Shown here: in pieces, positions 40 through 507 of the stretch
Layout: the number at the start of each line of letters is the position of its first letter
Position numbering within the stretch: the first letter of the stretch is position 1
From: Candidatus Hydrogenedens sp.
GTDB taxonomy: Bacteria; Hydrogenedentota; Hydrogenedentia; Hydrogenedentales; Hydrogenedentaceae
Reading direction: 5' to 3'
Length of the DNA stretch: 10,518 nucleotides
Assembly (NCBI GenBank): GCA_049968235.1
Contig: JBMFRC010000038.1
Coordinates: 1-10,518, forward strand
Notes under the pieces: generated by a model
The model's database searches: none
The model's input: the letters and a program-made list of their open reading frames with translations, nothing else
Told to the model about the DNA's origin: nothing
Translations under genes and position numbers: made by a program

Positions 40-507
40 ATGCGTATCACAAACTTCATCAAAAATTACCCCTGTATGGTTATTTTTATAATGATACTGT
101 TAGTAAATATTGCATCATTACTAATACCGCAAAAAGGAACGGCCCAAGGACAATATAATTGTGAGTGTAAAAACAAAATCAAATGAACATATGATAATAA
201 TTATGTAAAAGGTAGATATAAGTGTAAAAATATATCTAGTGGTCATGATGATATAAATTGTAAAGTTTGTGACACAGGACCTGATGAATTTAAACATACA
301 AAATATACCTATTCACAAAAATGTGAACCTCGCGATGGTTATTCTGGTTGTAGTAATCCATGTAGTAATAGTGACTGCGGAAATAGTTGTAATCCTTCTT
401 CATGTAATACAATAACATTCAAATTTTCAAAATGCAATGGAAGTTATCCATATTGTGGTAATTGTGAATATGAAGATAAATATTGGTGGGTTCCTATAAA
501 TTGGTAA
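40..507 (+). pseudogene. Signal-peptide plus Cys-rich secreted protein gene interrupted by one in-frame TGA (codon 49, nt 184-186): either a pseudogene or a UGA-recoded/readthrough CDS
   Basis: AAGGAG (26-31) lies 8 nt upstream of ATG at 40. Frame translation: MRITNFIKNYPCMVIFIMILLVNIASLLIPQKGTAQG (n/h/c signal peptide, AxG-type cleavage site) QYNCECKNKIK, then TGA, then 106 in-frame sense codons TYDNNYVKGRYKCKNISSGHDDINCKVCDTGPDEF...CSNPCSNSDCGNSCNPSSC...CGNCEYEDKYWWVPINW ending at TAA 505-507. The part after the TGA has 12 Cys and no ATG/GTG/TTG start codon in frame. It was not on the ORF track because it lacks a Met start. Confidence 0.45.

What the first reader, a model, noticed from the sequence alone, without database searches (positions are those of the whole stretch)
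40..507. Secreted 12-Cys protein gene with one in-frame TGA between the signal peptide and the Cys-rich domain
A strong SD and ATG (40) open a frame that encodes a textbook signal peptide. After 48 codons it meets TGA (184-186). It then continues in the same frame for 106 further sense codons, giving a Cys-dense domain (CxxC, C-x3-C-x4-C-x3-C-x4-C spacing) that has no start codon of its own. The rest of the window uses the standard code: the 623-aa and 484-aa ORFs have no TGA, and Trp is encoded by TGG. That leaves three possibilities: (a) a very recent nonsense mutation in a secreted Cys-rich protein, (b) UGA readthrough or selenocysteine insertion, or (c) a sequencing error. A pseudogene this intact with a perfect SD and signal peptide is unusual. 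The only secondary structure just 3' of the TGA is a weak 5-bp AT stem (187-206), so a bacterial SECIS is not supported.
Basis: seen in the sequence. Interest (0 to 1): 0.6.

Follow-up and report, generated by a model that had tools for sequence, protein, structure and literature searches.

The report
Nonsense-mutated secreted cysteine-rich gene remnant
The in-frame TGA is real, but it is most likely an ordinary recent Cys-to-stop mutation (TGT to TGA) that inactivated an orphan secreted cysteine-rich protein gene in a decaying, transposase-flanked gene island of a Candidatus Hydrogenedens bacterium, not a case of selenocysteine or stop-codon recoding.

Summary
ATG40 follows a strong SD and opens a signal peptide. 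TGA sits at 184-186, and 106 more sense codons with 12 Cys run to TAA505-507. That stretch has no in-frame start of its own.

A second, slightly different assembly (L001) carries the same TGA, so a read error is unlikely. The only homologue found anywhere (P0001/L002-L004, 74% aa identity) is an uninterrupted 155-codon ORF. It has the same SD, ATG and signal peptide, and TGT (Cys) at the TGA position.

That fits either Sec or a TGT>TGA nonsense mutation. It discriminates weakly, because 16 of the 31 single-base routes to TGA in this gene start from Cys codons.

The context favours decay:
- The next gene is one 452-aa ORF in L002 but is frameshifted in the window (T6 vs T5 at 1186-1191). L001 has a further 14-bp deletion in it.
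- Next comes a DDE transposase broken into at least 5 frame pieces.
- The island has low GC and is absent at the syntenic site in four related MAGs.
- 7.6 kb of core genes in the window are intact.

No convincing SECIS exists: one 8-bp AU hairpin of -3.9 kcal/mol, fold z = -1.03. There is no redox motif and no sign of TGA reassignment.

Verdict: recent pseudogene (~0.8); Sec ~0.05.

The parts
27..32 (+). Shine-Dalgarno AAGGAG, 7 nt upstream of ATG40. It is conserved in the intact orthologue L002.
40..186 (+). The 5' part of the disrupted gene. It encodes a signal peptide (codons 1-37) and 11 mature residues QYNCECKNKIK, and ends at the premature TGA (184-186).
   Evidence: L002 has TGT at the aligned codon.
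184..186 (+). Premature stop TGA. The aligned codon in the orthologue is TGT (Cys49), a single third-position T>A change. The same TGA is present in the independent assembly L001.
187..507 (+). The untranslated 3' part of the gene: 106 sense codons with 12 Cys, then TAA. It has no in-frame start codon. dN/dS against L002 is 0.147.
213..238 (+). An 8-bp all-A/U-but-one hairpin with the 10-nt loop AGUGUAAAAA, 34 nt after the UGA. It is the only SECIS-like candidate. It is weak (-3.9 kcal/mol) and not statistically unusual.
554..1910 (+). The neighbouring gene, a pseudogene. The orthologue is a single 452-aa ORF in L002. Here it is split into two frames (554-1201 and 1173-1910) by one extra T in the run at 1186-1191.
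1186..1191 (+). T6 run, where L002 has T5. This is the +1 frameshift site in the neighbouring gene. Deleting one T restores a 451-aa ORF.
1252..1265 (+). A 14-bp segment present here and in L002 but deleted in the sister assembly L001. It is a second, strain-polymorphic lesion in the same neighbouring gene.
2046..2745 (-). Remnant of a DDE (rve/rve_3) transposase with an N-terminal HTH, broken into at least 5 pieces in different frames. It marks the inner edge of the island.
2867..2867 (.). Point at which synteny and similarity to related Hydrogenedens MAGs (L005, L006, L008, L009) begin. Everything to the left of it is island DNA of lower GC (24-31% over 1-2000, against 30-41% over the rest of the window).

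Best explanation
The gene at 40-507 is a recently inactivated copy of an orphan gene for a small secreted protein with 14 Cys in its mature part. One third-position transversion changed Cys49 (TGT) to TGA. Translation from the still-perfect SD and ATG should now stop after 48 codons. The product would be a signal peptide plus an 11-residue tail. The 106-codon Cys-rich domain would be made, at most, in trace amounts by ordinary near-cognate UGA misreading.

The gene lies in a low-GC accessory island next to a dead transposase, in a Candidatus Hydrogenedens (Hydrogenedentota) genome. The whole island is decaying. The co-oriented partner gene, 46 bp downstream, is frameshifted, and the transposase is broken in several places.

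Shown here: the TGA, its presence in two assemblies, the Cys codon in the intact orthologue, the neighbouring lesions, and the island structure. Inferred: that the TGA terminates translation, and the direction of change (TGT to TGA).
For: 1. The intact orthologue has the same SD, ATG, signal peptide and length (155 codons), with TGT at codon 49.

2. The same TGA occurs in L001. This is a separate assembly (GCA_049969095.1) that differs from the window by 2 SNPs and a 14-bp indel over 6.4 kb.

3. The adjacent gene is one 452-aa ORF in L002 but is frameshifted here, T6 against T5. L001 carries an additional 14-bp deletion in it.

4. A transposase pseudogene in at least 5 frame pieces lies at 2046-2745. 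The stitched pieces hit rve at E = 4.5e-10 and rve_3 at E = 1.3e-9.

5. All lesions lie in the island. The six core genes across 2867-10067 are intact and collinear with relatives, so general sequence quality is good.

6. The island is absent at the syntenic site of four related MAGs. Similarity starts exactly at 2867. The first 2 kb have 24-31% GC, against 30-41% over the rest of the window.

7. dN/dS after the TGA (0.147) matches dN/dS after the neighbour's frameshift (0.177), with dS about 1. Low dN/dS here therefore only means that both lesions are young.

8. 16 of the 31 single-base routes to TGA in this gene start at Cys codons. A Cys in the homologue is therefore expected about half the time for a plain TGA nonsense mutation.

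9. There is no significant structure after the UGA (fold z = -1.03). The best hairpin is -3.9 kcal/mol, and 3-6% of arbitrary positions match or beat it.
Against: - The homologue has Cys exactly at the TGA, which is the classic Sec/Cys signature.
- A hairpin with a G at loop position 2 lies at a SECIS-compatible distance (34 nt). It is absent from the Cys-encoding orthologue.
- The downstream 106 codons carry no second lesion, and all 11 Cys that the orthologue has after codon 49 are kept.
- The neighbour's frameshift lies in a homopolymer, so it could in principle be a shared sequencing artefact. That would weaken the decay argument, although the 14-bp deletion and the transposase remnant would remain.
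- Whether the genome has selA/selB/selC/selD could not be examined.
- With only two lineages and no outgroup, the direction TGT>TGA is inferred, not shown.
Confidence: 0.8

Rival explanations
1. Selenocysteine. UGA49 is decoded as Sec by SelB and tRNA-Sec, directed by the hairpin at 213-238. The product would be a secreted selenoprotein with 14 Cys and one Sec, recently evolved from a Cys form.
For: - TGA aligns with Cys (TGT) in the only homologue.
- An 8-bp hairpin has its loop starting 34 nt after the UGA, with G at loop position 2. This lies within the geometry I recall for bacterial SECIS models, and it is absent in the Cys orthologue.
- The reading frame after the TGA is intact, with dN/dS of 0.147.
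Against: - The hairpin is only -3.9 kcal/mol and almost entirely A-U. 6.4% of all window positions and 3.4% of island positions have an equal or better one. The 86-nt fold has z = -1.03.
- Sec49 is not in a UxxC, CxxU or TxxU motif. The context is C41-x-C43-x5-U. Documented Cys>Sec conversions are concentrated in thiol-redox proteins with such motifs (PMC1794560).
- With Sec the mature protein would have 15 Cys/Sec, an odd number, against 14 in the orthologue.
- The partner gene is frameshifted, and the island carries a dead transposase.
- The TGA is seen only in two near-identical strains.
- Cys at the site is expected about half the time for a chance TGA nonsense mutation in this gene.
- No literature links Hydrogenedentota to Sec use. 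That is an absence of data, not evidence against.
Confidence: 0.05
2. Functional stop-codon readthrough or a reassigned TGA. The UGA (followed by A) would be read at useful frequency by tRNA-Trp or another tRNA. That would yield a full-length protein with Trp at 49 and exactly 14 Cys, because the window has an extra Cys117 where the orthologue has Arg.
For: - UGA is generally the leakiest stop codon in bacteria (general knowledge).
- The window copy gained Cys117 (Arg in L002). A non-Cys residue at 49 would therefore keep an even count of 14 Cys.
- TGA is a rare stop in this lineage: 2 of 29 long ORFs in related loci, and none of the six intact core genes of the window.
Against: - There is no in-frame TGA in about 2,150 codons of intact window genes, while TGG is used 44 times for Trp.
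- Two long ORFs in relative L008 end at TGA, with TAA or TAG only 3 and 9 codons later. This is the normal stop pattern.
- No readthrough-stimulating structure was found.
- The partner gene is broken anyway.
- Background readthrough of a few percent at most is not a designed mechanism.
Confidence: 0.07
3. Sequencing or assembly error. The true codon would be TGT or TGC, and the gene would be intact.
For: The sources are metagenome-assembled contigs of modest length. The neighbour's frameshift lies in a T homopolymer, a classic error site.
Against: - The TGA is a substitution, not an indel. It is identical in two assemblies that differ elsewhere by 2 SNPs and a 14-bp indel.
- 7.6 kb of adjacent core genes contain no frameshift or premature stop. 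A third assembly agrees at 99.95% over 3953-10518.
Confidence: 0.04

Closest known systems
Nonsense- or frameshift-inactivated genes in decaying, IS-associated accessory islands (ordinary bacterial pseudogenes)
   Same: A single-base premature stop relative to an intact orthologue. The expression signals are still perfect. Adjacent genes carry independent lesions: a frameshift, a strain-polymorphic 14-bp deletion and a shattered transposase. The island has atypical GC and is absent from relatives.
   Different: Nothing essential differs. The gene family itself is an orphan: only one other lineage is known, and there are no Pfam or NCBIfam matches. What was lost is therefore unknown.
Bacterial selenoprotein genes (UGA plus a downstream bSECIS, with Sec/Cys homologue pairs, e.g. 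FdhA or thiol-redox selenoproteins)
   Same: An in-frame TGA aligned with Cys in a homologue, with coding conservation on both sides.
   Different: There is no stable or conserved SECIS and no redox motif. The TGA is not conserved across divergent lineages, and the partner gene is broken. The protein is a Sec-translocon-exported, disulfide-rich protein rather than an oxidoreductase. The Sec machinery could not be checked.
TGA-reassigned genetic codes (table 4, TGA=Trp; table 25, TGA=Gly)
   Same: A low-GC genome in which TGA is rarely used as a stop.
   Different: Conserved genes contain no in-frame TGA, Trp is always TGG, and relatives end some ORFs at TGA.
Small secreted disulfide-rich proteins (toxin-, bacteriocin- or antifreeze-like Cys ladders)
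   Same: A signal peptide followed by about 118 residues with 14 Cys, including a regular C-x3-C-x4-C-x3-C-x4-C ladder.
   Different: There is no detectable sequence family. The structure prediction was unusable (pLDDT 38.5), so no fold-level assignment is possible.

Membership tests
Bacterial selenoprotein gene | In-frame UGA aligned with Cys (or Sec) in homologues, with conservation on both sides | tested here: met
   TGT (Cys49) in L002-L004 and P0001. The discriminating power is low: 16 of the 31 single-base routes to TGA start at Cys codons.
Bacterial selenoprotein gene | A stable SECIS stem-loop shortly downstream of the UGA, with a G-containing apical loop | tested here: inconclusive
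   The only candidate is at 213-238: 8 bp, 10-nt loop, G at loop position 2, -3.9 kcal/mol. 3.4-6.4% of arbitrary positions do as well. The region fold has z = -1.03. The geometry criteria were recalled from memory of bSECISearch and not re-read.
Bacterial selenoprotein gene | UGA and SECIS conserved in divergent orthologues | tested here: not met
   The TGA occurs only in the window and in the 99.75%-identical L001. The one divergent orthologue has TGT and no hairpin. No other relatives exist in any collection searched.
Bacterial selenoprotein gene | The genome encodes selA, selB, selC (tRNA-Sec) and selD | not testable with these tools
   Only about 11 kb of the source genome is available. 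No literature was found.
Bacterial selenoprotein gene | Sec located in a redox-active motif (UxxC, CxxU or TxxU), typical of Cys>Sec conversions | tested here: not met
   The context is C41-E-C43-KNKIK-U49-TYD. The motif rule comes from PMC1794560.
Pseudogene by nonsense mutation | A premature stop relative to a full-length orthologue, with no alternative start for the downstream part | tested here: met
Pseudogene by nonsense mutation | The lesion is real and not an assembly artefact | tested here: met
   The same TGA is in the second assembly L001. Raw reads could not be inspected.
Pseudogene by nonsense mutation | Independent signs of decay in the same locus | tested here: met
   The neighbour is frameshifted, L001 has a 14-bp deletion, and the transposase is fragmented.
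Pseudogene by nonsense mutation | Relaxed selection downstream of the lesion | tested here: inconclusive
   dN/dS is 0.147 after the TGA and 0.177 after the neighbour's frameshift, with dS about 1. The lesions are too recent to leave a signal, and there is no outgroup.
Reassigned TGA (code 4 or 25) | In-frame TGA codons within conserved genes, with TGA not used as a stop | tested here: not met
   The six intact genes have 0 in-frame TGA and 44 TGG codons. 2 of 29 long ORFs in relatives end at TGA.

The most novel reading that the evidence does not exclude
UGA49 encodes selenocysteine. On this reading a Candidatus Hydrogenedens bacterium exports a disulfide-rich protein carrying a single Sec that recently replaced a structural Cys, directed by a minimal A/U-rich SECIS (213-238). 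This would be a selenoprotein family outside the usual redox-enzyme classes.
Probability: 0.05. Interest if true: 0.65.

Novelty: new member of a known kind. Interest (0 to 1): 0.12.

Why it matters
As a pseudogene it matters little. It shows an accessory island in Candidatus Hydrogenedens being eroded: nonsense, frameshift, deletion and a dead transposase in three consecutive genes.

It is also a caution for selenoprotein screens. In Cys-rich genes, a TGA/Cys pair is expected by chance for about half of all TGA nonsense mutations.

The intact form is a two-gene module: a secreted protein with 14 Cys in its mature part, and a 452-aa protein whose hydrophobic N- and C-terminal stretches suggest a signal peptide and a membrane anchor. 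It is known from only two lineages and has no recognisable family. It is a minor lead for function discovery.

If the UGA were decoded as Sec, this would be an unusual exported, non-redox-motif selenoprotein. The evidence makes that unlikely.

Tried and rejected
- **Family scans.** Pfam and NCBIfam scans of the joined product and its neighbours found no family.
- **Homologue searches.** The word-indexed search of 5.8 billion proteins found only P0001. The exhaustive HMMER search of 1.84 billion representatives added only P0002 and P0003. These are long Bacteroidetes-type repeat proteins matched by seven weak stretches of about 50 residues, which I judged spurious.
- **Collection scans.** Scans of GTDB genome contigs, JGI metagenome contigs and viral contigs with the Cys-rich protein or its partner found no relatives.
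- **Partner protein search.** The search with the L002 452-aa partner returned nothing, not even itself. This is unexplained and is probably a gap in the index.
- **Look-up of the 48-aa truncated product.** It is not on record.
- **Look-up of the 623-aa protein to find more strains.** It returned only the two known contigs.
- **AlphaFold2 on P0001 without an alignment.** Mean pLDDT was 38.5, so no fold search was attempted.
- **Rfam scan of the whole window.** Nothing was found near the TGA. The only hit reaching its gathering score was the L10 leader.
- **Literature.** Searches for Hydrogenedentes/Hydrogenedens with selenocysteine or formate dehydrogenase, and for the accession numbers, found nothing relevant.
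- **Code reassignment.** Considered and rejected on codon counts.
- **Reinitiation at a start codon after the TGA.** Considered and rejected. The ATGs at 183, 191 and 203 are out of frame, and there is no in-frame start.

Full report
**1. The observation**

- AAGGAG lies at 27-32, 7 nt before ATG40.
- The first 37 codons read as a signal peptide: R2 and K8, a long hydrophobic core, and A-Q-G before Q38. This is read from the sequence, as no predictor was available.
- Codon 49 is TGA (184-186).
- The same frame continues for 106 sense codons to TAA at 505-507.
- That stretch has 12 Cys, including CxxC and a C-x3-C-x4-C-x3-C-x4-C ladder. It has no in-frame ATG, GTG or TTG.
- The large ORFs of the window contain no in-frame TGA and use TGG for Trp.

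**2. Source organism and independent copies**

Exact-protein look-ups found two public contigs from related MAGs.
- L001 (GCA_049969095.1) is 99.75% identical to window 1-6432. It differs by 2 SNPs and one 14-bp indel.
- L010 (GCA_049971155.1) is 99.95% identical to window 3953-10518.

The window is therefore a third assembly of the same population. L001 carries the same TGA, which argues against a random sequencing error.

Relatives of the 623-aa PMT-family glycosyltransferase (72-79% aa identity) are MAGs that include Candidatus Hydrogenedens sp. and Ca. Hydrogenedens terephthalaticus. The organism is therefore a member of the Hydrogenedentota.

**3. Homologues**

Across 5.8 billion proteins, the only homologue of the joined product is P0001. 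It is encoded on three Logan contigs, L002-L004. The gene caller started P0001 at an internal Met. The DNA shows the same SD, the same ATG and a full 155-codon ORF at L002:35-499. It is 74% identical to the window product.

At the TGA position it has TGT, which is Cys.

An exhaustive HMMER pass over 1.84 billion representative proteins added only two long repeat proteins, which I judge spurious. Scans of genome, metagenome and viral contigs found nothing more. There are no Pfam or NCBIfam matches. The family is an orphan known from two lineages.

**4. Sec or nonsense mutation?**

A TGA/Cys pair is the classic selenoprotein signature. It is also exactly what a TGT>TGA nonsense mutation produces. 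In this Cys-rich gene, 16 of the 31 single-base routes to TGA start from a Cys codon. Cys at the aligned site therefore discriminates only about two-fold.

The RNA downstream is not convincingly structured.
- The 86-nt region folds at -10 kcal/mol, with z = -1.03 against shuffles.
- There is an 8-bp, almost purely A-U hairpin at 213-238. Its 10-nt loop is AGUGUAAAAA and begins 34 nt after the UGA.
- That geometry is compatible with the bacterial SECIS models I recall. However, the hairpin is worth only -3.9 kcal/mol, and 6.4% of all positions in the window (3.4% in the island) have an equal or better one.
- It is absent in the Cys orthologue. I count this as a small point for Sec.

The candidate Sec is not in a UxxC, CxxU or TxxU motif. 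Documented Cys>Sec conversions concentrate in such redox motifs (PMC1794560). With Sec, the mature protein would have an odd number (15) of Cys/Sec, against 14 in the orthologue.

**5. Context**

The context is what decides the question.
- **The next gene is broken.** In L002 it is a single 452-aa ORF (550-1908). In the window the same protein is split between two frames, 554-1201 and 1173-1910. The cause is a T6 run at 1186-1191 where L002 has T5. Removing one T restores a 451-aa ORF that is 66% identical to L002's.
- **A second lesion exists in a sister strain.** L001 shares the frameshift. It has also lost 14 bp (window 1252-1265) that the window and L002 retain. This is a further frame-breaking lesion that is polymorphic between near-identical strains, as expected for a gene already dead.
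- **A dead transposase follows.** Between this gene and the conserved core lie the remains of a DDE transposase on the minus strand (2046-2745), in at least five frame pieces. Stitched together, they hit rve (E = 4.5e-10) and rve_3 (E = 1.3e-9).
- **The island is accessory.** Similarity to the related MAGs L005, L006, L008 and L009 begins exactly at 2867, the end of the 444-aa gene. None of them has the Cys-rich gene or its partner. The first 2 kb have 24-31% GC, against 30-41% over the rest of the window.
- **Core genes are intact.** The six core genes across 2867-10067 are intact and collinear with relatives. The lesions therefore do not reflect poor sequence quality.

**6. Selection**

dN/dS between the window and L002 is 0.127 for the Cys-rich gene, and 0.147 after the TGA. 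It is 0.183 for the partner gene, and 0.177 after its frameshift. dS is about 1.

The out-of-frame part of the partner shows the same low ratio. The apparent constraint after the TGA therefore says only that both lesions are recent relative to the split from L002. It does not show that the domain is still translated.

**7. Genetic code**

The six intact genes of the window have 0 in-frame TGA and 44 TGG codons. In 29 long ORFs of the related loci the stops are TAA 20, TAG 7 and TGA 2, and the next TAA or TAG after each TGA follows within 3 and 9 codons. Nothing suggests reassignment of TGA.

**8. Conclusion**

The most likely reading (about 0.8) is a recent TGT>TGA nonsense mutation. It inactivated an orphan gene for a secreted protein with 14 Cys in its mature part, inside a decaying, transposase-associated accessory island.

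The rival readings are:

| Rival | Probability |
|---|---|
| Selenocysteine | about 0.05 |
| Useful readthrough | about 0.07 |
| Sequencing error | about 0.04 |

The main untested item is whether the genome has the Sec machinery. That needs the full assemblies.

The function of the intact two-gene module remains unknown. It consists of the secreted Cys-rich protein and a 452-aa protein whose hydrophobic N- and C-terminal stretches suggest a signal peptide and a membrane anchor. The structure prediction was unusable (pLDDT 38.5).

Noticed in passing
window 554-1910 (+); T6 run at 1186-1191: The gene after the Cys-rich gene is a frameshifted pseudogene. It is a single 452-aa ORF in L002, with hydrophobic N- and C-terminal stretches and no known family. 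Here it is split into 215-aa and 245-aa ORFs by one extra T.
   Followed up: yes
window 1252-1265; L001 around 1557: A 14-bp deletion in the sister assembly L001, inside the already frameshifted gene. The window keeps the ancestral sequence shared with L002.
   Followed up: yes
window 2046-2745 (-): A degraded DDE transposase (HTH plus rve plus rve_3) in at least five frame pieces. It lies between the island genes and the conserved core, and synteny with relatives starts at 2867.
   Followed up: yes
window 7396-7545 (-): A ribosomal protein L10 leader (Rfam RF00557, 47.4 bits against a gathering score of 44) lies upstream of rplJ (6836-7375) and rplL (6358-6762).
   Followed up: no
window 2867-7375 (-); L005 and L006: rplJ-rplL is followed not by rpoB/rpoC but by a 623-aa PMT/ArnT-like glycosyltransferase and a 444-aa protein (SPM domain, with a weak EF-hand-like match). 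L005 and L006 keep the whole arrangement; L008 and L009 show only the glycosyltransferase plus 444-aa gene pair in the DNA held.
   Followed up: partly
L010 1-120, against window 3833-3952: In the third assembly (GCA_049971155.1), the first 120 nt of the contig are unrelated to the window. The junction falls inside the 444-aa gene at window 3953. This could be an insertion or rearrangement in that strain, or a chimeric contig end.
   Followed up: partly
L001 245-272 (about 70 nt upstream of the ATG; just outside the window): A promoter-like site, TTGACA-16 nt-TAAACT, with a TG extended -10. It lies upstream of the Cys-rich gene. The overall count of such sites in the region does not exceed the shuffled expectation.
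   Followed up: no
window codon 117 (388-390): The window copy has an extra Cys (TGT) where the orthologue has Arg (CGT). Without residue 49 the mature protein would still have 14 Cys. The direction of change is unknown, as there is no outgroup.
   Followed up: partly
L002 550-1908: The protein search with this 452-aa gene product returned no hit at all, not even itself or the window's 215-aa fragment, which is on record. This is probably an index gap rather than biology.
   Followed up: no
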